From: Candidatus Bathyarchaeota archaeon
GTDB lineage: Archaea > Thermoproteota > Bathyarchaeia > Bathyarchaeales > Bathycorpusculaceae
DNA: 15,522 bases
Direction of reading: 5' to 3'
Assembly: GCA_963768425.1 (NCBI GenBank)
Contig: CAVYHV010000016.1
Coordinates: 1 to 15,522 of the forward strand
The position numbers were made by a program, and so were the translations under genes. The notes under the pieces were generated by a model. The model did no database searches and was not told the origin of the DNA. It saw only the letters and a program-made list of their open reading frames with translations. Below, one piece after another: positions 4,435 through 13,036 of this stretch (position 1 is its first letter; the number at the start of each line of letters is the position of its first letter).

Positions 4435-4974
4435 ATGCCTGACGGGCACGCTCTATCGAAAAAGAAAATCATGTTGTTAAGCTTGTTAGGTGTTTTCATA
4501 ATATTTATGGGATATATCACATATGCAGACCTTAAGAATACAACAGAAAATTCTGTTCCGCAAACTACACCCAGTCCTGTTAGTTTTTTTCCGCCTGAAT
4601 ACCCCAATAATCCTTCGAATATTCCTCTGGTGACAAACTACACAATAATTATTCCTCAAGGACTATACAATGGCGGAGACATCCCATCGTATAAGGTTTC
4701 TATGAGGTTTATAGCACCGTTACCAAGCCTTAAAAGCGAAGAAAACTGGACTATAACAAATTGCACTGCTGGCAGAGGCACAATACCTTATCCTTTTACA
4801 ACCTGGTCAAAAACAGGTTATTCTTACAACCCAGACTCATATGCTCAAATTCTTCCTTACGTCTTTAATGGAACAACAATAGACGTTAGGGTTGATGTCT
4901 ACGGATATAACGGCATAGATGTCCAGCTTGTGTACTCAAAAGAGTGGAATGTAACAGAATACGTTTACACATAA
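4435..4974 (+). CDS. Membrane-anchored exported protein (moron-like insertion)
   Basis: The only credible plus-strand gene; visibly AT-rich. KKK followed by a hydrophobic N-terminal anchor, a Pro/Thr linker, and six N-x-T sequons (NTT, NYT, NWT, NCT, NGT, NVT). Confidence 0.8.
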   Translation: MPDGHALSKKKIMLLSLLGVFIIFMGYITYADLKNTTENSVPQTTPSPVSFFPPEYPNNPSNIPLVTNYTIIIPQGLYNGGDIPSYKVSMRFIAPLPSLKSEENWTITNCTAGRGTIPYPFTTWSKTGYSYNPDSYAQILPYVFNGTTIDVRVDVYGYNGIDVQLVYSKEWNVTEYVYT

Positions 4975-4983
4975 AATCTGTTT

Positions 4984-5304
4984 TTACCAATAAACATCAT
5001 GGTCTCTTGTGATTAAGCAAACACAATTGGGATGCAAATTCACCGCAAAAGTGTCTTCATCAAGCCATTCTCCATAAGGAAACATATCCTTCAGGTCGTC
5101 CGGATCCTGCAGCTCATACACGTCATTGTTGTGGTCTTGGCAGTTTTGGCATAGATTGGGACTGGGCTTTAGTCCTTCAGTTACATAACGCCAAACAGTG
5201 TAACGGATTGCTGGGTTAACCACAGCTGCCTTGAAAGCCTTGAACGCAAGAAAGGCGTTGAGGGCGTCTTGCAGGTCATTGTCTTGGAATTTCTGAGATA
5301 ACAT
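4984..5304 (-). CDS. Stand-alone Mu gpF/SPP1 gp7-like C-terminal Cys/His domain (head morphogenesis)
   Basis: CQNC...HPNCVC matches the CxxC...HPNCRC signature. Overlaps the portal 3' end, the usual position for this gene. Confidence 0.7.
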   Translation of the reverse strand: MLSQKFQDNDLQDALNAFLAFKAFKAAVVNPAIRYTVWRYVTEGLKPSPNLCQNCQDHNNDVYELQDPDDLKDMFPYGEWLDEDTFAVNLHPNCVCLITRDHDVYW

Positions 5305-6748
5305 AGCTTTTCCCGTTCATGCTTAGCTGTCTTTGAGAAGCCTTTAGTTCAGGAGAAGGCTGAGATGCATCGCTTTTGCTGACGGCGTCGGAGGGCCTTG
5401 CTTGGTTGTAACTTTGACGCATCGTTGCCAGGTTCCCCCAGACTTCTTCAGGCAAACCAAGTTTTGCTCGGGCTTCTAGATCTCCGGTTAGGCCCGCTTG
5501 GAAGAGTGCAATTTGTTGGTCAACCAAAACGTCTGCTGCAGGCTCCCAGATCGGTCGCCACTTTACCTTTGGAATCTTATCCGAAGTAATGAACGATCCT
5601 GGAAAGTCGCCTTGCAGGATAGCTGGGAACAATTCAGTTTCGTAAGTGTACTTTATGTGTTCCTGTCGCATGCGAAGGCGAGTGACAAATTCCTGCATAA
5701 CTATGTCAGCGGTTGATCTGTTTGCGTTTTCAATTTCTCCTAAAAACAACTTGGGAACGCCTAACTGTGCGTTACGTTGAGTTAGCAGATAGTTTAGCCA
5801 CCATTCAACGCGTAAGCCGCGAGTCATGCTGTCGATAGGTATGGGGTTGACGTCGTGTTTGAATGCGAGGTCGGTTCCTTGTTGGCGTTCAGCCATGCCA
5901 TCGATAAATGCCTGCAGCTTAGTGTCCGACCACTCAGCCTTTTCTGTGCCGCATTGATAGGCAAGGATGGGCTTGGTGTAAATTTTCATTATGGTTGCCA
6001 TGTCATGCTGGAAATCGTCTGTAAGAGCCTGAATCAGCAGGGTGCTTCTTAGCAGGCTTACGCCGTAGGCGCTGTTGTACCTACCTGAACCTTGATTGTG
6101 AAGTGTACGCAGTATGTCTTGAGGCTCAAAAATTGCCGGAGGCACAGAAAGAAGTTGAATGTAGCCGAAAATGTTCATGTAAGCGTCTCGGCGAATCCGG
6201 ACATAAAGTGGATCCAGAGGCTTCAGCCATTCAACCCGTTGATTATCTTCATCTCGGCAAAGCTCGGTGACGCTAAAGCCGTTAACCAAAGCATTATTTT
6301 CTTGGATTCGGGCGACAGAGGGAACGTTATGGGAATCCAGCCACTCGCTCAGATAATCGTTGAATGTAGAGTTGCCGCCTTCTAGCTCAAGCCAATTGCT
6401 AACCGTCAAGTTAACGCGAACATCAACTGAGGCTGCAATATACGGATTGTACTCGTAGAGGGCTTGCAGTTTCGGCAGATCATCAACTGGCGTGATTCCC
6501 CAAATTCTATCATAAAGGCTGCTGTAAGGCGGAGTAACAAAGCCTATTCCAGCACTTTTCAGAGTGTACCTGCTGAGGTATTCTTGCAGAACCGCATCTC
6601 GACTGGACCTAAACGGGATCTCTTGCTCAATTTGCTGCTTAGCCGTATCCTCTGCTACATTTCGCATGGGGTTTGGCAACGAATCGGTTCGTTGGGCAGG
6701 AAGTATTTTGCTTGCAACCTGACCAAAAGCGGATCTAAAGTTTACCAT
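5276..6748 (-). CDS. Portal protein
   Basis: 490 aa directly after TerL. Contains portal-type segments: NPYIAASVD, LKPLDP..VRIRRD.Y, YGVSLL, LGVPKLFLG...NRSTA, EAR..LGLP. Confidence 0.9.
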   Translation of the reverse strand: MVNFRSAFGQVASKILPAQRTDSLPNPMRNVAEDTAKQQIEQEIPFRSSRDAVLQEYLSRYTLKSAGIGFVTPPYSSLYDRIWGITPVDDLPKLQALYEYNPYIAASVDVRVNLTVSNWLELEGGNSTFNDYLSEWLDSHNVPSVARIQENNALVNGFSVTELCRDEDNQRVEWLKPLDPLYVRIRRDAYMNIFGYIQLLSVPPAIFEPQDILRTLHNQGSGRYNSAYGVSLLRSTLLIQALTDDFQHDMATIMKIYTKPILAYQCGTEKAEWSDTKLQAFIDGMAERQQGTDLAFKHDVNPIPIDSMTRGLRVEWWLNYLLTQRNAQLGVPKLFLGEIENANRSTADIVMQEFVTRLRMRQEHIKYTYETELFPAILQGDFPGSFITSDKIPKVKWRPIWEPAADVLVDQQIALFQAGLTGDLEARAKLGLPEEVWGNLATMRQSYNQARPSDAVSKSDASQPSPELKASQRQLSMNGKSYVISEIPRQ

Positions 6749-6764
6749 TTACTAAGTACATCCA

Positions 6765-8006
6765 TTAATGTCTGTTCGGGAACGCAATTCCCACGCCTGA
6801 CGATGGCGAGGGTGAGCGTTTTAGTTGCCAAGCGGCTAATGCGAGAGCGATAACTGCGTCGTCATGGTAGCCTTCGGGTGCTCCATACTGCACGTTGCCG
6901 CTTCGGGTAGTCTTGTACCCGTACAGCTTGAGCTCGTTAATCAAAACTGGAATCGGCGGGATTGTGAGCTGGTGGTTTTCAATCATTATGCTGAGGTTTT
7001 CGATGAGGTCTTTTTTTGTGGCGTTGGTGAATTTGTAGCCGTCCACATGCACTTTCTCTCTGCAGAGTTCGTCTTCGATTGGATCGCCAACTCCGGTGCT
7101 GTCAATTAGCAAACGGGCATCATAGTTCTGGGATAGTTGAACGATGCGTTTTCTTTGAAATACCCAATCCAACTCATTGAATCTGTCAAAGGCAACCAAG
7201 TGACCATCAATATCCAAGACAATTAGAACCGTGAAATCTTCGAGCTTTGCAAGGTCGCCGCCCATGACATACTTCTTATTTGGCTGAGGAAGCTCAAAGC
7301 CGCCTTCAACAATGCGGTCAACTCCTCGGAATACACTGCCGACGTCTTCTAAGAACTGTGCCAAAACCTCTTGACGATAAGCCAACTCAGGCATATCCCG
7401 AGCAAAAGAGGCAATTTCGGCTGGATCCAAGTACGGGTTGCTTGCACTTGGGAAGCTCCAGCTTTTGTAATCTGTTTGTTTAGGGTCTTGCCCGCGAGTC
7501 CAAAGCTGGAAATACCAGTTATGCCCTCTGGGAGTGCCCGTGAAGAAGGCGATGCCTTTCTCATCCATCAAAGCAGGCCTAAGAGCCAAGGTCCAGGCTT
7601 CTTCAGCAATTTGTGCGCCTTCGTCAACCCAAAGAACCTTTACGCCTTGGCTACGAAGTGAATCGGGGTTGTCTGCGCTCTTAAACCAAACATGCCGATT
7701 GCCCAGCAAAATCACGTGACGGTCTGCACGGTGGATTTCCTCGATTAGCTCACCTGGACAATAGTTGAAGAATTCGCTCCATTGCCGCTGGGTATGCCAA
7801 TAAGTGGGTGCAACTGCGAAGCCGACGATTCCTAATTTTTCTTTGCCTTCGCCTTGCTGCCACATTTGCCTTATGAATTCGTTGGCGCCCGCGACGGTTT
7901 TGCCCCAGCGTCGTCCGCAGTTGAGCACTCGGAACCTTGCGGTGCAGTAGTGGAATTGGCATTGTCCTGGATGGGGTTTGTATCTGATGCGTATTGTTTT
8001 TTGCAT
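6765..8006 (-). CDS. terL: Terminase large subunit
   Basis: PHPGQ adenine-binding motif, Walker A GRRWGKT, Walker B LWVDE, coupling motif GTP, and RNase H-like nuclease motifs GGDLAKLEDFT, IDSTGVG, HDDAVIALALA. Confidence 0.96.
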   Translation of the reverse strand: MQKTIRIRYKPHPGQCQFHYCTARFRVLNCGRRWGKTVAGANEFIRQMWQQGEGKEKLGIVGFAVAPTYWHTQRQWSEFFNYCPGELIEEIHRADRHVILLGNRHVWFKSADNPDSLRSQGVKVLWVDEGAQIAEEAWTLALRPALMDEKGIAFFTGTPRGHNWYFQLWTRGQDPKQTDYKSWSFPSASNPYLDPAEIASFARDMPELAYRQEVLAQFLEDVGSVFRGVDRIVEGGFELPQPNKKYVMGGDLAKLEDFTVLIVLDIDGHLVAFDRFNELDWVFQRKRIVQLSQNYDARLLIDSTGVGDPIEDELCREKVHVDGYKFTNATKKDLIENLSIMIENHQLTIPPIPVLINELKLYGYKTTRSGNVQYGAPEGYHDDAVIALALAAWQLKRSPSPSSGVGIAFPNRH

Positions 8007-8397
8007 ACTTCAGGGTCTTCCCAACGGATGTTGATTTCTTCAGACTGGGCTTGCTCTGTTGGTTTGGCGCCGCTAAGCTCTGCGAGTTCAATGTTAATTT
8101 GGCGCATAAGATTCAAAGCTGCAATCCGTGCCCGTCGCTTTTGGCTTGGCTGTACATGAAGCTGGCTTTACGGTACAACTGCACATGACAGTTCTTAGCC
8201 TTCAGCAGAGCTTCGGTGAATTCCTGCAGAAGAGGCTGCCATGAAGCTCTGTGAGCCATCTCTCGATACACCGTGGCGGTGTGACAGCAGAATTTGATTG
8301 ATGTTTCTGCAACAATTTCTTTAAGAGTTAAGCCGTCTCCTTCGAGCTTTAGCTCAAAGAGGCGTCTTTCAAGCAGATCTTTATCCAATAAAATCAC
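7871..8397 (-). CDS. Putative terminase small subunit, split by a 1-nt deletion near 8131-8133
   Basis: Track ORFs 8113..8397 (N-terminal HTH: GLTLKEIV...ATVYRE) and 7871..8116 join into ...AKSD(x)ARIAALNLMRQINIEL...EEINIRWED if one base is restored. Immediately upstream of terL. Likely start TTG 8388. Confidence 0.7.
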
Positions 8398-8882
8398 TTC
8401 AACTGCAGATTTTGCGAATTTTTAGGCACATACTTTAATGAGACCGTTAAGCGACCGCGGCTGTTTGATCTGACGAGTTCTCGGTTTATTCTTGTGTCGC
8501 CTCTGCCATGGCTGCCATGACCAACACGTTTAATGATCCAGTTCCCAAGGTCTCCGCGAACCAGCTGCGGGTTACTCGTAATTAGATAGAACGGCAGTCT
8601 GGTTTGGGATGTGTAGAGCTCTGCGATAAAGTTCAGCAGACGCTTCCCAACGCCTATCCCTTGATAGTCAGGTAAGAACCACAAGACGGCTAACCCGATA
8701 ATAATTTGCTTTCATACGCACGTGTGCTACAGCGATAAAGGCAATGGGTTTTTGGTTATACATCGCTGCGTAGCATCTGACTCCGGCGCCAAGTTTACTG
8801 TTTAGATAGTGATATTGCCGAAACATCTGCCACAGGGAACCGCCGCACCGATAAACTTGGAGCTCAACGGGCGGCCGACTTC
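8394..8882 (-). CDS. Mom-like GNAT acetyltransferase domain (no start codon of its own at the domain boundary; extra base near 8674)
   Basis: The -1 frame relative to the ATPase reads SRPPVELQVYRCGGSLWQMFRQYHYLNSKL...RVSRLVVL. After a 1-nt shift it continues PDYQGIGVGKRLL...TSNP. HYL plus the acetyl-CoA motif QGxGxG. Confidence 0.8.
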
Positions 8883-9487
8883 TTTTTTTCTGCTAAACTC
8901 CATTGTGTCCGTGCAGAAAACCCAATCGGGATCAAGCCAATCGATAACATCATAGTGGCATGTAACAGCAATGAATTTCTTGTTTGTTCTTCGGACGGCT
9001 TTGCTTATGGCATAGGCGCTAACTTTAGCAATCTCACGGTCTACGACGCTTGTAAATTCGTCAAATACGATTTGTGGCTGCTCTAGACTGAGAGCTCTTG
9101 CGATGTCTACACGCATTTTCTCTCCTTGGCTGAGGGCATCGTAGCTTTTGAGCCAATCAGGGCGGTGAAGCAAAACCAACGCTGCAGAGGTTCTTTGTTA
9201 TCTCGTTTACCTGTTGTCCTTCTGGAAAATCGTCGAGAATAGATTCATGGGTGTAGGCAAAAGCCTTTGATGTAGCTGTCAGCGAAGAGAGTTTTGGCTA
9301 TGCTTGTTTTACCAGTGCCGCTACGACCAACTATGACGCCGATCTGCCAAGTGTTATCCTCAATCGGAATTTGTCCAGTGAAGTGTTTCTCCATCTTGCA
9401 ATCAACGAGTGTGAAGCTGCCGATGACTGATTGCGCTCGGAAACTGTTTGGCTTATTCCAGGTTCTCACAAAGTCAAAAGACGGCAT
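8802..9487 (-). CDS. Soluble ABC-type ATPase of the phage ABC-GNAT type, interrupted by two +1 indels (9259-9262, 9160-9162)
   Basis: Walker A GRSGTGKT, signature LSQGE, Walker B IVFDE, D-loop TSVVD, H-loop VTCH. The missing middle (AYTHESILDDFPEG...LCSVGFASPPDWL) is in the intervening frame. No permease gene nearby. Confidence 0.88.
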
Positions 9488-10002
9488 TTGTACCCCTCAC
9501 CTGTTAGTTTGTTGAAGATGGCTTGTTGGTGAACCTCATCTTCGCATTCAAGTACAACCTCAAAAGTCGCAGCAAGCGTTATGCCTTTTTCTTCGCTCAG
9601 AAGGTTTTTGAGTTTCTCATCGGAAACCATAACCAAATACTTGAGTTCTTCTTCCTTTCCCGCTTCGATAATGCGTTCATATTCGGCCCTGTCAAGTTCA
9701 GGGTCATGCTTGCCTCTGAGCTTGTTTAAGACCTGTCTGAGTAATCTGCGGTCAACATCTTCTACTGGTAGGCGGATAACTGAGACTTCAGCCATGCCCA
9801 AGGCTTTAGCGGCTGTGTAGCGTTGTTCTCCGTCAGCGATTAAGAGATCCTTGTTGGTTATGATGGGAACGATAAAGCCCCATTTCTTGATAGAAGTTTT
9901 GAGGCGTTCGAGCTGGTCTTTGCTCATCTTATTTGGGTTCTGCCCATCCGTCTTAACGTCGCTGATCTTTACCGTTTCAGCGGCTGGAATAACTATTGAC
10001 AT
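9466..10002 (-). CDS. ParB/Sulfiredoxin N-terminal domain protein
   Basis: NPN.M...QLERLKTSIKKWGFIVPII...IADGEQRYTAAKALG is a ParB-N motif with GEQR in place of GxHR. No HTH. The small C-terminal domain overlaps the ATPase start. Confidence 0.9.
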   Translation of the reverse strand: MSIVIPAAETVKISDVKTDGQNPNKMSKDQLERLKTSIKKWGFIVPIITNKDLLIADGEQRYTAAKALGMAEVSVIRLPVEDVDRRLLRQVLNKLRGKHDPELDRAEYERIIEAGKEEELKYLVMVSDEKLKNLLSEEKGITLAATFEVVLECEDEVHQQAIFNKLTGEGYKCRLLTL

Positions 10003-11462: not shown

Positions 11463-11672
11463 CTATCTTTCTTTCTGAACATTCACTCAAGAGGCAACGA
11501 CGAAAATATCTCAAAGAACTTTTGTCCCAAAGCCTGGTTAGGCATTGGCTTAAATAAGGTCCCTATTCCAACCAATGTCGCAAAGAGCTAAATTGCCACT
11601 GATGTCGTCAAAACGGCTTTTTCTTTCTCAAAACCAAAATACCATTTCCTCAATGAGGCAGTCTGAATCTAT

Positions 11673-12724
11673 TTATCGGCTTCTTCTTTTTATTAAAAAA
11701 ATTGTTAATGTACTTATTAAAAGTACAACTGCAAGAGTTACTACTACTGTTGGAAATAATTCGGGAATTGATGGCCCGGGTGATGTGTTTGCAAGCGGTG
11801 TTGACGGACTCGCGATAGGCATCGCTTGTGGATTTGAGGCCTTTAGAAAAGGAGCAAAAGTAACATCATTACTCTTGGTCAGCGAGTTAGCTATCGTTTG
11901 GCTATCGTTTGTCCCCCACCAATTGTAAGTAGCATTAACGTTGCTTATCTCCGTATAAATATTATAGTTAGATTGGTTCATAATATTATTTTCATAAAGC
12001 ACTGTTGGAACTGAGAATAGAAAAATCCCTACAGCATTGTTATCAATTGTATTGTTAACAATTTGAATGGAGTAATCGAGCGGCGATTCAGCCGAAATAG
12101 ATAAGCCCACTCCAAAATTTCTAATAATGTTATTAGATGCTGTCATATTGCCTAATACTAATATTCCAGTCGTTTCGTTACCAAAAAGACCAGACGTTCC
12201 GTATCCTGCTCCGTTAAGGATGTTTGAGAAAAGTTTGTCTTCTGAGCCGTCATCTTCTATTGCATTACCACCGTTCGAACTAGTGAGATTAATGATATTA
12301 TTTGTAACTGTATTTGCTGACCCTCCAATAACGATAACATTGGCATTTCCTACTATTGTGAATCCAGAGATGGTTACGTTATTTGCAGCAATGTCTATTC
12401 CCACATCATAAGGACCAATTTGAGTAGTTGTGATAATTGTATTCTCACAACCCTGACCAATCACCGAGATTGATTTATTTATAAATAGACTATTGCCACT
12501 CATCTGATTATCATTCCCAGTTGTAATGTTATAATTTCCAGACCTTACAAAAATAGTGTCGCCTGCTTTTGCACTATTAATGGCGCTTTGAATACTGGAG
12601 AAATCATCGGGCACTATAATTTCTTTTGCAGTTGTTGCTTTTACTACGTTAAACTGAAGCGTAATTGACGATGCTAATAAGATTAAAAAAAAGTGACCAA
12701 GTAATGCTTACTTAAACGGCCCAT
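11673..12724 (-). CDS. NosD/CASH right-handed beta-helix surface protein with C-terminal IPE-TM-basic anchor; signal peptide out of frame at a T8 tract
   Basis: VPDDFSSIQSAIN.A..GDTIFV..G.Y cap, Asn/Ile-rich parallel beta-helix repeats, NWWG motif, Pro/Ser/Thr linker, and tail IPELFPTVVVTLAVVLLISTLTIFLIKRRSR. ATG 12724 gives MGRLSKHYLVTFFLILLASSITLQFNVVKA if the 12685-12692 tract has 9 rather than 8 bases. Confidence 0.88.
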
Positions 12725-13036
12725 AGCTACCAATATAGTGATATTTCGATATATGGGTTGTTATAAGAACCTGGCGTCTCAAGAAATTACAGCACCAACG
12801 CATAATCTGCTCTTGCCTGCAACTGCTCATTTTGTTAAACATTTGTAGGGGAACTTGAGATTATTCGTGAGATTATACGGAACAACTATCCTATGGCAAC
12901 CGTATAATTAAGCGATCAATAATAGATAAATATCAAATATAAAGCGTCTTTTTGTAAAGACAAAGCTTCTCTAAAGCCGATTAGGCGGGTAAGAGTAGTT
13001 TTGGTAAACTCCTCGTATCTTGTTTTTAGCCTCTTG

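What the first reader, a model, noticed from the sequence alone, without database searches (positions are those of the whole stretch)
8394..10002. Packaging-linked ParB/Srx + ABC ATPase + Mom-like GNAT cassette: candidate DNA hypermodification system in an archaeal virus
Seen: three overlapping coding units (ParB-N, a soluble ABC ATPase with all motifs, and a GNAT with HYL and QGIGVG), with the GNAT stop overlapping the TerS GTG. Established: phage Mu Mom is a GNAT-fold enzyme that modifies adenine N6 to block restriction, and ParB-N proteins next to terminases commonly accompany DNA-modifying enzymes in tailed phages. Inference: this virus acylates its DNA during or just before packaging to evade host restriction. 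I know of no characterised example from an archaeal virus, and the ATPase role and modified base are unknown.
Basis: partly seen in the sequence, partly recalled or inferred. Interest (0 to 1): 0.8.

Follow-up and report, generated by a model that had tools for sequence, protein, structure and literature searches.

The report
Frameshifted ATPase–acetyltransferase gene beside terminase
An archaeal provirus carries, just before its DNA-packaging genes, a ParB-like gene and an ATPase–acetyltransferase gene whose two halves lie in different reading frames joined at a conserved run of A's, an arrangement shared with lactic-acid-bacteria phages that probably yields two proteins from one gene.

Summary
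The cassette is real at 8394-10002 (minus strand): ParB-N gene, ABC ATPase and GNAT, directly upstream of TerS, TerL and portal. ATPase and GNAT are not two families. They are one phage family (phrog_11143), fused in frame in most phages.

The host lineage is Bathyarchaeia. There the GNAT half lies in the -1 frame behind a conserved A7 or A9 run in 65 of 71 scorable named loci, and in frame in none. All 17 Streptococcus, Lactococcus and Oenococcus phage records show the same offset, at G_GUU_UUU or similar sites. So do 27 of 79 nearest IMG/VR contigs, at A or T runs. I read this as programmed -1 frameshifting or transcriptional slippage giving ATPase-only and ATPase-GNAT products.

The window copy also carries three private 1-nt indels in this gene and one in TerS, so it is decayed or mis-assembled.

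"Mom-like" is not supported (no Pfam Mom hit; hhalign probability 0.1%). The GNAT fold is generic.

Packaging-linked DNA acylation was already predicted for this ABC-GNAT family by Iyer and Aravind, and remains untested. The recoding signal and the archaeal hosts are what I did not find in print.

The parts
9466..10002 (-). ParB-N (ParB/Srx, CTPase-fold) gene, 178 aa, intact. It has the GxxR box (DGEQRYTAAKALG) and a small C-terminal domain ending GYKCRLLTL. No HTH or dimerisation domain was found.
   Evidence: ParB_N 2e-8; phrog_498 N-terminus 7.3e-25; phrog_620 4.4e-21; conserved GxxR and GYxCRxLTL in relatives
9265..9487 (-). ABC ATPase segment 1. Its start ATG at 9487 overlaps the ParB end by 22 nt. 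Contains Walker A GRSGTGKTS.
   Evidence: phrog_11143 positions 11-69, E 1.9e-10
9262..9266 (.). Window-private extra base (frameshift 1).
   Evidence: table 4: 1 letter left out at 9264 in contigs of all 4 runs
9164..9261 (-). ABC ATPase segment 2, read in the third frame (YTHESILDDFPEGQQVNEITKNLCSVGFASPP).
   Evidence: read; colinear with the intact paralogue L003
9157..9163 (.). Window-private extra base in a C run (frameshift 2).
   Evidence: table 4: 1 letter left out at 9159 or 9163 in contigs of 4 runs
8890..9156 (-). ABC ATPase segment 3: signature LSQGEKMRV, Walker B IVFDEFTS, D-loop SVVD, H-loop CHYD, DPDWVF.
   Evidence: phrog_11143 102-200, E 2.9e-37; nearly invariant columns
8883..8889 (-). 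A7 run (AG A_AAA_AAA G in the ATPase frame): the proposed -1 frameshift or slippage site joining ATPase to GNAT.
   Evidence: bridged without a gap by 4 contigs of 2 runs (table 8: X1 records 3 and 4, X8 records 25 and 26)
8842..8875 (-). Predicted hairpin (GCCGCCCG...CGGUGCGGC), starting 7 nt after the run.
   Evidence: 12 pairs, -15.3 kcal/mol, 0 covarying pairs; window z -1.13; 54 A7 loci mean z -1.87
8802..8882 (-). Zero-frame tail of the ATPase-only product (26 codons, stop TAA 8802-8804). It overlaps the GNAT frame.
8675..8889 (-). GNAT N-terminal half in the -1 frame (KKRSRPPVELQVYRCGGSLWQMFRQYHYLN...), including the family's nearly invariant R-P and the first strand.
   Evidence: 217-266; 195-266; R17, P18 nearly invariant
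8672..8676 (.). Window-private extra base (frameshift 3), which breaks VVLPDYQG.
   Evidence: table 4: 1 letter left out at 8674 in every contig there (X1 2 of 2; X2, X7 and X8 1 each)
8394..8671 (-). GNAT C-terminal half (acetyl-CoA loop QGIGVGKRL), stop TGA 8394-8396.
   Evidence: Acetyltransf_7 0.0015; phrog_11143 265-355; phrog_7693 acetyltransferase 2.1e-9
7871..8397 (-). TerS-like HTH protein in two pieces (8113-8397 and 7871-8116). The window lacks a base after 8133.
   Evidence: intact 172-aa paralogue; T put in behind 8133 in all 4 runs; HTH/TerS families at this position in viral loci
6765..8006 (-). Large terminase subunit, 413 aa.
   Evidence: Terminase_6N 9e-14, Terminase_6C 9.3e-5; phrog_2 3.5e-41
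5276..6748 (-). Portal protein, 490 aa.
   Evidence: phrog_9232 9.7e-18

Best explanation
The locus is the packaging-proximal accessory module of a head-tailed Bathyarchaeia provirus: a ParB-N (NTP-binding, no HTH) protein, then one gene of the phage ABC-ATPase-GNAT family (phrog_11143), then TerS, TerL and portal.

Shown:
- ATPase and GNAT are a single polypeptide in most phages.
- In the clade that includes this window, the GNAT half lies in the -1 frame behind a homopolymer run (A7 here).
- The -1 frame opens only 6 nt before the run and has no start codon before the family's conserved R-P and first strand.

Inferred:
- Standard decoding makes a roughly 227-aa ATPase with a short out-of-frame tail.
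- A -1 ribosomal slip on A_AAA_AAA, or an RNA polymerase slip adding one A, makes the roughly 360-aa ATPase-GNAT fusion.
- The gene therefore sets a fixed ratio of the two subunits of a dimerising ABC ATPase, in the manner of dnaX tau/gamma.

Inferred with less confidence: the ParB-N partner loads or activates the enzyme on double-stranded DNA, and the GNAT, powered by ATP, transfers an acyl group from acyl-CoA to a DNA base before or during packaging.

The window's own copy cannot do this as assembled. It carries three further private 1-nt indels in the gene and one in TerS.
For: One family:
- Four window pieces hit phrog_11143 colinearly.
- In-frame fusions are found in 127 of 155 viral loci and in 40 of 59 phage records. 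I computed those offsets by hand from the coordinates.

Conserved -1 arrangement:
- 65 of 71 scorable named Bathyarchaeia loci (54 A7, 9 A9, 2 A8), 0 in frame, 1 in +1, 5 unscored. The pattern holds in every assembly-name group.
- 25 of 32 loci from same-genus genomes (these overlap the named set).
- 17 of 17 Streptococcus, Lactococcus and Oenococcus phage records.
- 27 of 79 nearest IMG/VR loci against 1 in +1.

The shift is needed:
- In the 15 A7 loci scored in the -1 frame, the last -1-frame stop is 6 nt before the run. The first start codon lies at +54 or later in 14 of them (+9 GTG in one, up to +168). That is beyond the nearly invariant R-P.
- In phage 315.4 and P335 the GNAT frame has no start before HHYL, and annotators started the ORF inside the domain.

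Different slippery sites sit at the same place:
- A_AAA_AAA (Bathyarchaeia).
- G_GUU_UUU (315.4, P335).
- A_AAA_AAG (Enterococcus 9184).
- A9-A10 or T7-T9 runs in IMG/VR. The three T7 runs there (L239, L275, L283) are in heptamer phase.

The GNAT half is under purifying selection in the -1 frame: third-position entropy is 1.36 against 0.61 and 0.37.

The run is not an assembly error:
- No length variation among the 54 A7 loci.
- Contigs of other runs bridge it without a gap.

Homopolymer control:
- Runs of 7 or more occur in 15 of 19 -1 loci and in 35 of 112 in-frame loci.
- 33 of those 35 are an A10 clade.
- In 28 of its 30 distinct loci the -1 frame stops within 2 codons of the run. A slip there would give ATPase alone.

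All -1 rows except one long branch fall in one clade (82 rows, SH-like support 99).

Functional unit and DNA link:
- ParB_N+ABC, ParB_N+ABC+GNAT and ABC+GNAT+GP3_package fusions.
- ParB upstream in 89 of 131 viral loci; terminase downstream.
- The window ParB is closest to the ParB module fused to phage DNA methyltransferases (phrog_498).
- A phage ParB-like protein activates a DNA thymine dioxygenase on dsDNA (abstract of PMC13229309).
- The same reading was published for this family (passage in PMC7824862).
Against: Against recoding:
- No RNA or protein data exist. No RNA run holds the stretch.
- The hairpin has 0 of 12 covarying pairs. It is only modestly more stable than shuffles (mean z -1.87; window -1.13). 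The A9 subgroups have no stable structure (z 0.55 and 1.08).
- The first 75 nt after the run show no clean -1 periodicity (0.58, 0.29, 0.57).
- In four A9 loci a TTG lies 33-48 nt upstream of the run in the -1 frame, so independent initiation is possible there.
- Thomasclavelia phage TR-TP1 has ATPase and GNAT as separate, non-overlapping genes. Enterococcus 9184 has an annotated start before the first strand. A two-gene solution is therefore viable.
- A -1 offset is also what ordinary 4-nt gene overlaps give.
- In the A10 clade, in-frame and -1 states interleave on the tree (10 changes, at least 5 forced). That could be mutational noise at long runs.

Against DNA acylation:
- The GNAT fold is generic. 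The best matches are small-molecule and protein N-acetyltransferases (1y9k Z 15.1, RimI 5isv Z 14.4, Naa50 Z 14.0).
- There is no Mom or TmcA signal.
- In Enterococcus 9184 and Thomasclavelia the genes sit among replication genes.
- Only 16 of 80 Bathyarchaeia loci had a BLAST-detectable TerL within 3 kb.
- No modified base has been shown for any member.
Confidence: 0.6

Rival explanations
1. There are two ordinary overlapping genes. The ATPase terminates normally, and the GNAT is initiated on its own (internal or non-canonical start, or translational coupling) inside the overlap. No recoding occurs.
For: Thomasclavelia TR-TP1 has separate genes, and Enterococcus 9184 has an annotated start 34 nt inside the ATPase end. 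Four A9 loci have a TTG 33-48 nt upstream of the run in the GNAT frame. A -1 offset is typical of 4-nt overlaps.
Against: In 14 of the 15 A7 loci scored in the -1 frame, the first ATG, GTG or TTG lies 54-168 nt after the run, at varying positions (+9 GTG in the other). That is downstream of the nearly invariant R-P and the first strand. In 315.4 and P335 no start precedes HHYL. Profile matches in the two frames abut without loss (ATPase to position about 200, GNAT from about 195). Homopolymer or heptamer sites recur at the junction in unrelated sequence contexts.
Confidence: 0.12
2. The run is a DNA-level contingency tract (phase variation). Its length changes in the population and switches the GNAT half on (in frame) or off. 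Assemblies merely show the commoner off state.
For: Long A/T runs are mutable. A8 variants in the +1 frame occur in an A9 context (L028 and L043; L149). A10 (in frame), A9-type (-1) and A11 (+1) loci interleave in one IMG/VR clade. Phase-variable DNA-modification genes are well known (recalled).
Against: None of 71 Bathyarchaeia loci is in frame through run length, and the 54 A7 loci show no length variation. 17 of 17 Lactobacillales phage records are -1, with only a T5 stretch. The -1 IMG/VR loci differ from the A10 clade in flanking sequence, not only in run length.
Confidence: 0.1
3. The frame break at the junction is damage or sequencing error, and the cassette copies are pseudogenes.
For: The window copy does carry private indels. 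Several paralogues in the same genus are visibly decayed: L026, L022, L013 and L054. Many Bathyarchaeia loci lack recognisable terminases.
Against: The same offset appears in 65 of 71 loci from assemblies of several naming styles and in isolate phage genomes. The GNAT frame stays open and shows coding periodicity. Only 1 of 79 IMG/VR loci is +1 against 27 that are -1. Only 1 locus with A11 was seen beside 33 with A10.
Confidence: 0.04
4. The architecture and recoding are as described, but the target is not DNA. The ATPase-GNAT acetylates a protein (a packaging, capsid or host protein) or an RNA or aminoacyl-tRNA, as RimI/Nat enzymes, TmcA or GNAT toxins do.
For: The best fold matches include RimI (Z 14.4) and Naa50/NatA (Z 14.0-13.7), within 1-1.5 Z of the top hit. 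ASCH (an RNA-binding, N4-acylcytosine-related family; function recalled) follows the gene in 315.4 and Oenococcus. Formyl_trans_N follows it in Gordonia Axumite and phiE255. TmcA is likewise an ATPase plus a GNAT (recalled).
Against: The fusions are to DNA-handling modules: ParB_N, the TerS family GP3_package and wHTH. Synteny with TerS and TerL is conserved. No TmcA family was hit at E<=1.
Confidence: 0.3
5. One reading: a member of the Mom clade that modifies adenine N6.
For: Both are GNAT-superfamily enzymes of phages. In the Mu-like phage phiE255 the gene sits after the tail-fibre genes, where Mu carries mom.
Against: Pfam Mom (PF25680) is not hit by any cassette protein at E<=1, although it hits Mu Mom at 2.4e-75. 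hhalign probability is 0.1%. Mom is not in the top 50 BFVD matches. Mom has no ATPase or ParB partner.
Confidence: 0.03

Closest known systems
ABC-ATPase-coupled GNAT of phage ParB-terminase loci (predicted DNA nucleobase acyl-modification system; Iyer, Zhang, Burroughs, Aravind 2013, seen only as cited in PMC7824862 and PMC4738411)
   Same: It is the same protein family. Tenacibaculum phage pT24, named in PMC7824862, is among my tblastn hits. ParB is upstream and terminase downstream. All ABC motifs and the GNAT acetyl-CoA loop are present.
   Different: The host is an archaeon (Bathyarchaeia). The two domains are split between frames at a conserved slippery run. The window copy is also damaged. 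I could not read the 2013 paper or any supplement, so I cannot say whether it noted archaeal members or the frame split.
dnaX tau/gamma and phage tail-chaperone G/GT recoding (two products from one gene by -1 frameshifting or transcriptional slippage)
   Same: There is a slippery A-rich heptamer or homopolymer at a domain boundary. One product is a truncated form of the other. The site type is conserved while the sequence varies. Both configurations occur in relatives: a slip makes the long form in some and the short form in others.
   Different: The proteins are unrelated. No product has been observed. Known archaeal cases are few: tail chaperones of haloarchaeal viruses and Mg chelatase (passages of PMC5009743).
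Phage Mu Mom (GNAT-superfamily adenine N6 modifier)
   Same: A phage GNAT-superfamily enzyme proposed to acylate DNA and so escape restriction.
   Different: There is no sequence or profile similarity. Mom acts without an ATPase or ParB partner and is regulated by Com (annotation).
TmcA / NAT10 (ATP-dependent tRNA/rRNA cytidine N4-acetyltransferase)
   Same: A P-loop ATPase joined to a GNAT that acetylates a nucleic-acid base (recalled). This is the best mechanistic analogy for why an acetyltransferase would need ATP.
   Different: The TmcA ATPase is a RecD-like helicase, not an ABC ATPase. No TmcA Pfam family was hit at E<=1. TmcA's target is RNA.
ParB-dependent phage thymine dioxygenases (5mYOX176/ParB176; PMC13229309)
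   Same: A short phage ParB-like protein without an obvious DNA-binding domain sits next to a post-replicative DNA-modifying enzyme and is needed for its action on dsDNA (abstract).
   Different: The enzyme is a Fe/2OG dioxygenase, not an ATPase-GNAT. For the present pair, binding is only inferred from natural fusions.

Membership tests
phrog_11143 ABC-ATPase-GNAT family | Colinear match to the whole 357-position profile | tested here: met
   Window pieces cover 11-69, 102-200, 217-266 and 265-355. Positions 70-93 are read in a third frame.
phrog_11143 ABC-ATPase-GNAT family | ABC motifs (Walker A, signature, Walker B, D-loop, H-loop) and the GNAT Q/RxxGxG loop | tested here: met
   ABC fold of homologue P0002. 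GNAT fold of the L003 ORF, pLDDT 85.7.
phrog_11143 ABC-ATPase-GNAT family | One uninterrupted reading frame | tested here: not met
   The window has four frame changes. The best paralogue, L003, has one, at the conserved run.
ParB-terminase locus DNA-modification cassettes (Iyer/Aravind) | ParB-N gene upstream and TerS/TerL downstream on the same strand | tested here: met
   Window. Viral loci: ParB_N 89 of 131; Terminase_6N 45 and Terminase_3 32 of 120. Bathyarchaeia: ParB 79 of 80 but TerL only 16 of 80.
ParB-terminase locus DNA-modification cassettes (Iyer/Aravind) | A modified base in virion DNA that depends on the cassette | not testable with these tools
   No chemistry or kinetic-signal data are available.
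Mom family (Pfam PF25680) | Sequence or profile match to Mom | tested here: not met
   No hit at E<=1 for the L003 GNAT, P0002, P0006, P0088 or P0001. Mu Mom itself scores 2.4e-75. hhalign probability 0.1%.
Mom family (Pfam PF25680) | Closest fold neighbour is Mom | tested here: inconclusive
   Mom is absent from the 50 best BFVD matches. I know of no solved Mom structure (recalled) and none was among the PDB matches, and I did not confirm that Mom is in BFVD.
TmcA/NAT10 | RecD-like helicase ATPase plus a GNAT_acetyltr_2 domain | tested here: not met
   The only Pfam hits are ABC_tran and Acetyltransf_1/7/10. The ATPase fold matches ABC nucleotide-binding domains.
Programmed -1 frameshift / transcriptional slippage genes | Slippery heptamer or homopolymer in the zero frame at the frame junction | tested here: met
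   A_AAA_AAA at 8883-8889. Seen in 65 of 71 Bathyarchaeia loci. Other sites occur in phages.
Programmed -1 frameshift / transcriptional slippage genes | The downstream frame holds conserved residues that no start codon can reach | tested here: met
   the -1 stop is 6 nt before the run and the first start is at +54 or later in 14 of the 15 A7 loci scored in the -1 frame (+9 GTG in one). R-P is nearly invariant.
Programmed -1 frameshift / transcriptional slippage genes | Stimulatory RNA structure supported by covariation | tested here: inconclusive
   A hairpin is predicted, but 0 of 12 pairs covary. Mean z is -1.87 for A7 loci, and the A9 loci have no stable structure.
Programmed -1 frameshift / transcriptional slippage genes | Two protein products, or edited mRNA, observed | not testable with these tools
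   No RNA holder was listed. No proteomics is available.
Canonical partition ParB | ParB-N plus HTH DNA-binding and C-terminal dimerisation domains, with a ParA partner | tested here: not met
   The only significant Pfam hit in the 178 aa is ParB_N. No ParA-like gene lies in the window ORFs I scanned.
ABC transporter | A membrane permease partner or fused transmembrane domain | tested here: not met
   The neighbours are ParB and TerS. The database names 'ABC transporter' rest on the ATPase domain alone.

The most novel reading that the evidence does not exclude
A dnaX-like recoding switch at a homopolymer run fixes the ratio of ATPase-only to ATPase-GNAT subunits in a ParB-guided, ATP-driven DNA-acylating machine. 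That machine marks viral DNA just before packaging. The device would have been kept, with changing slippery sequences and in both polarities, from Bathyarchaeia viruses to phages of lactic acid bacteria. It would be one of very few recoding signals shared by archaeal and bacterial viruses outside the tail chaperone.
Probability: 0.25. Interest if true: 0.85.

Novelty: new variant of a known kind. Interest (0 to 1): 0.62.

Why it matters
First, the family is common in tailed viruses, and most clusters in the ESM Atlas are viral. Yet it is mis-named 'ABC transporter', 'DNA polymerase' or 'hypothetical', and in a whole clade it is mis-annotated as a full ATPase plus a truncated ORF. Recognising the frame junction would correct these records.

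Second, a conserved recoding site in archaeal proviruses adds a testable case to a very short list of archaeal frameshifting or slippage events. It comes with bacterial counterparts (P335, Oenococcus phages) that can be tested in culturable hosts.

Third, the long-standing prediction that ParB-terminase loci modify DNA during packaging has no experimental example for the ATPase-GNAT type. Knowing that the active enzyme needs the fusion product tells experimenters what to express.

For the window itself the finding is modest. Its copy is damaged.

Tried and rejected
Things tried that gave nothing usable:
- Binding of ParB to the ATPase: complex prediction gave no verdict (score 0.00, controls not run). 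It counts neither for nor against.
- Expression: the look-up of sequencing runs listed no RNA holder, and no run held more than 0.22 of the words. Only Logan contigs of 4 soil or peat runs could be laid. They cannot show transcripts, read-level run lengths or the window's own sample.
- The family tally (61 of 61 genomes 'match') is meaningless, because the profile rings in 13 of 14 control genomes through its ABC half. I used that call only for loci.
- Fold searches did not narrow the GNAT substrate. There were about 250 chains at Z>=8, and the top rows are tied within 1-2 Z. Absence of TmcA, NAT10 or Mom from those lists is not evidence.
- The first IMG/VR scan used a fused query and so returned only in-frame loci (61 of 61 with both motifs; 19 of 80 lacked one regex motif). 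I repeated it with the archaeal ATPase first.
- Nine of 80 named loci failed my ATPase C-terminal regex, and five had no scorable GNAT motif. I dropped them from the 65-of-71 count. In one search, four of 36 loci failed the regex.
- In the tree, phage 315.4 is labelled plus1. One of my GNAT queries had been translated in a wrong frame and hit its own locus. Its true state is -1. No other row can be affected, since that junk query matches only its source.
- The tree is a FastTree with midpoint root. Enterococcus 9184 is a long branch, so I claim no order of events.
- Terminase linkage in Bathyarchaeia is weak: TerL in 16 of 80 by BLAST, and about 10 of 84 downstream ORFs by PHROGs. Many copies look like remnants.

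Literature:
- The Iyer et al. 2013 paper is not held. I know it only through citing passages. Supplements are closed.
- That the frame junction is not in print rests on searches, and on finding no mention of ParB, ABC or this acetyltransferase in the held part (first 300,000 characters) of the recoding review PMC5009743.
- The Bathyarchaeia virus preprint has no occurrence of ParB, acetyltransferase, ABC or frameshift.

Considered and rejected:
- ABC transporter: no permease partner.
- Partition ParB: no HTH or ParA.
- TA-type GNAT toxin: no antitoxin-like neighbour. This was not pursued further.

Full report
**What is there**

The window is a whole 15.5-kb contig (C16) of a 2.96-Mb, 33-contig genome. 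Its minus strand reads:
- a ParB-N gene (9466-10002);
- fragments of an ABC ATPase and a GNAT (9487 down to 8394);
- a TerS-like HTH protein in two pieces (8397-7871);
- TerL (8006-6765);
- portal (6748-5276);
- weak protease/scaffold and capsid matches further on.

Close relatives of the cassette lie in records titled Candidatus Bathyarchaeota/Bathyarchaeia or uncultured archaeon in 76 of 80 loci. The other four are short contigs of bacterial MAGs. 'Archaeal head-tailed provirus, packaging module' is therefore confirmed.

**One gene, not two**

All ATPase and GNAT fragments hit a single PHROG, phrog_11143 (357 positions, function unknown), in colinear order. Proteins of 400-470 aa with ABC_tran plus GNAT domains are abundant. 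So are other fusions:
- ParB_N+ABC (about 420 aa);
- ParB_N+ABC+GNAT (P0088, P0002);
- ABC+GNAT+GP3_package, a TerS family (P0001);
- ABC+GNAT+wHTH (P0015).

These fusions show that ParB, ATPase, GNAT and a TerS-type DNA binder work together.

An AlphaFold model of the GNAT ORF from the intact paralogue (pLDDT 85.7) is a standard GNAT. A model of P0002 (pLDDT 81) has an ABC nucleotide-binding domain.

**The conserved frame junction**

The genome holds at least five further copies. In the best one (L003, contig C14) ParB (179 aa), ATPase (227 aa), TerS (172 aa) and TerL are intact. The GNAT (175-aa ORF) lies in the -1 frame and overlaps the ATPase end by 124 nt. The junction is a run of A's.

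Counts across relatives:
- Same-genus genomes: 25 of 32 scorable loci have A7 or A9 with GNAT in -1. Two have A8 with GNAT in +1. Three are in frame through secondary indels. Two could not be scored.
- Named Bathyarchaeia records (not independent of the above): 54 A7, 9 A9 and 2 A8 in -1; 1 A8 in +1; 5 unscored; none in frame, out of 71. The pattern holds in all assembly-name groups.

In all 15 A7 loci scored in the -1 frame, that frame is closed by a stop 6 nt before the run. In 14 of them it has no start codon for the next 54-168 nt (a GTG at +9 in the other). Yet it encodes, five codons after the run, the R-P that is nearly invariant in the family, followed by the first strand of the GNAT. 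Upstream of the run the ATPase frame shows coding periodicity. More than 75 nt downstream the -1 frame does. The 75 nt in between are ambiguous.

**Not peculiar to archaea**

I computed frame offsets by hand from the tblastn coordinates, for the 59 phage records where both halves were listed.
- GNAT is in -1 in all 17 Streptococcus, Lactococcus and Oenococcus records.
- It is also in -1 in Enterococcus 9184.
- It is in frame in 40 records (Gordonia, Arthrobacter, Burkholderia, Pseudomonas, Pasteurella, Porphyromonas, Leptospira, Aeromonas, Nonlabens, Tenacibaculum, Vibrio, Pseudoalteromonas, three uncultured).
- In Thomasclavelia TR-TP1 the two halves are separate genes.

In 315.4 and P335 the junction is CAG_GUU_UUU_C. 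In Enterococcus 9184 it is GC_A_AAA_AAG. Oenococcus has a T-rich stretch and A_AAG_GGC. GenBank annotators placed the GNAT start inside the domain, in P335 and Oenococcus at the TTG of the HYL motif.

Among the 80 IMG/VR loci nearest to the archaeal ATPase, 50 are in frame, 27 are -1, 1 is +1, 1 is in frame with a stop and 1 has no room. The -1 loci carry A9-A10 or T7-T9 runs at the junction.

As a control I measured the longest homopolymer between the ATPase end and HHYL:
- -1 loci: 7 nt or more in 15 of 19.
- In-frame loci: 7 nt or more in 35 of 112. Of these, 33 are one clade with A10.

In 28 of the 30 distinct loci of that A10 clade, the -1 frame stops within two codons after the run. A slip there would give the ATPase alone.

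On a FastTree of the ATPase domain (167 rows), every -1 row except the long-branched Enterococcus phage falls in one clade of 82 rows (support 99). That clade also holds the A10 group. At least 5, and most parsimoniously 10, changes of state are needed.

**How I read it**

A slippery run at the domain boundary lets one gene make both an ATPase-only protein and an ATPase-GNAT protein. Which of the two needs the slip differs between lineages. ABC ATPases act as ATP-sandwich dimers (established knowledge), so the ratio would set how many GNAT heads a dimer carries. That last point is inference.

For A7 with a GC-rich hairpin 7 nt downstream, ribosomal -1 frameshifting is the simpler mechanism. 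The hairpin has 12 pairs and -15.3 kcal/mol but no covariation. Mean z for the 54 A7 loci is -1.87, and -1.13 for the window. For A9-A10 and T9 runs without a stable structure, transcriptional slippage is at least as likely. I cannot separate the two.

Known archaeal cases are few (passages of PMC5009743).

**The window's own copy**

Contigs of four unrelated soil or peat runs, 85-99% alike, were laid on the window. They lack one letter at 9264, at 9159/9163 and at 8674, and carry an extra T after 8133. Four contigs bridge the A7 run without a gap.

So three breaks in the ATPase-GNAT gene and one in TerS are private to this sequence. I cannot tell decay from assembly error. Either way the copy as given encodes neither an intact enzyme nor an intact TerS.

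**Function**

Synteny is strong in viral contigs:
- ParB_N is the upstream ORF in 89 of 131 loci.
- The first long downstream ORF matches Terminase_6N in 45 and Terminase_3 in 32 of 120. The two counts may overlap.
- That ORF usually follows a 300-460-nt gap, which holds HTH/TerS-type ORFs.

The window ParB is most like the ParB module fused to phage DNA methyltransferases (phrog_498).

Published work gives a precedent and the same prediction:
- A ParB-like activator is required by a phage DNA thymine dioxygenase on dsDNA (abstract of PMC13229309).
- ParB-fold fusions to methyltransferases occur in phages, to an acetyltransferase in a bacterium, and to ASCH and MT-A70 domains in archaea (passages of PMC12704722).
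- 'ParB-Terminase large subunit' loci are predicted to modify DNA during packaging (PMC4738411).
[quoted passage not shown] That phage is among my hits.

The specific 'Mom-like' claim fails. The GNAT's nearest folds are small-molecule and protein N-acetyltransferases, which does not discriminate between targets.

Side clues point to amino-group chemistry but not to a target. An ASCH gene follows the cassette in 315.4 and Oenococcus. A Formyl_trans_N gene follows it in Gordonia Axumite (labelled tRNA-methyltransferase) and in phiE255.

My estimates for the target are about 0.4 for DNA and about 0.3 for protein or RNA. The rest is open.

**Verdict**

- What I did not find in print is the conserved -1 junction, its reverse-polarity relatives, and the Bathyarchaeia hosts. 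The 2013 paper and all supplements were unseen.

Noticed in passing
G000 contigs C9:889-2468, C14:7097-8669, C6:221993-222959, C28:100023-100718, C14:276210-276587: The same genome holds at least five more copies of the ParB/ATPase-GNAT cassette, 66-77% identical in DNA and in varied states of decay. Other genomes of the genus hold up to eight or more. This suggests a heavy load of related proviruses or remnants in this Bathyarchaeia genus.
   Followed up: partly
IMG/VR loci such as L228, L233, L267 (run about 120 nt after the Walker B): A clade of in-frame ATPase-GNAT genes keeps an A10 run. In 28 of 30 distinct loci it is followed at once by a -1-frame stop (A10-TAG or A10-TAA). That is the mirror image of the window's arrangement.
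   Followed up: yes
L010:1805-2452 (Gordonia phage Axumite gene 3) and L011:4807-5421 (phiE255 gp30): The gene after the ATPase-GNAT is a Formyl_trans_N protein in both phages. In Axumite it is annotated as tRNA-methyltransferase.
   Followed up: partly
L009:4813-5190 (Streptococcus phage 315.4) and L140:4139-4531 (Oenococcus phage Vinitor-27): An ASCH-domain gene lies between the GNAT and the terminase genes in these Firmicutes phages. It was not seen among the commonest families at that position in 108 IMG/VR ORFs.
   Followed up: partly
L142:3519-4349 (Enterococcus phage 9184 ORF024); L141:3675-4055 (P335 Orf25); L140:3675-4061: There are public annotation errors. The GNAT half is labelled 'DNA polymerase' in phage 9184. 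In P335 and Oenococcus phages it starts at a TTG inside the HYL motif. The ParB-N gene is labelled 'DNA modification methylase' in the Javan phages.
   Followed up: partly
window 11500-13000: A low-GC stretch (0.36-0.41 against 0.44-0.49 elsewhere) holds a 313-aa ORF (11673-12614, minus strand, GTG start). It has no Pfam or PHROG match.
   Followed up: no
window 4435-4974 (+): This is the only sizeable plus-strand ORF inside the minus-strand head module. It is 179 aa, with a hydrophobic N-terminal stretch and many N-x-T/S motifs, and has no family match. It may be a moron or a surface protein.
   Followed up: no
window 9466-9570 and relatives (C-terminus of the ParB-N protein): A conserved 35-residue C-terminal element (..F.V.V.C..E.EQ....L...GY.CR.LTL) ends the ParB-N proteins of this cassette, from Bathyarchaeia to IMG/VR phages. 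It hits phrog_28816 alone. It may be the docking piece for the ATPase.
   Followed up: partly
L198, L204, L206 (named records of Anaerolineaceae and Phycisphaerales MAGs): Near-identical cassette copies (70-72% to the archaeal ATPase, A7 in -1) sit on short contigs (3-18 kb) binned with bacteria. These are most likely mis-binned viral contigs.
   Followed up: no
L009 and L141, about 10-60 nt after GGTTTTTC: 315.4 and P335 share a possible long-range stem (CCCAC...GUGGG) after the slip site. P335 has z -2.25 and 315.4 has z -1.19.
   Followed up: no
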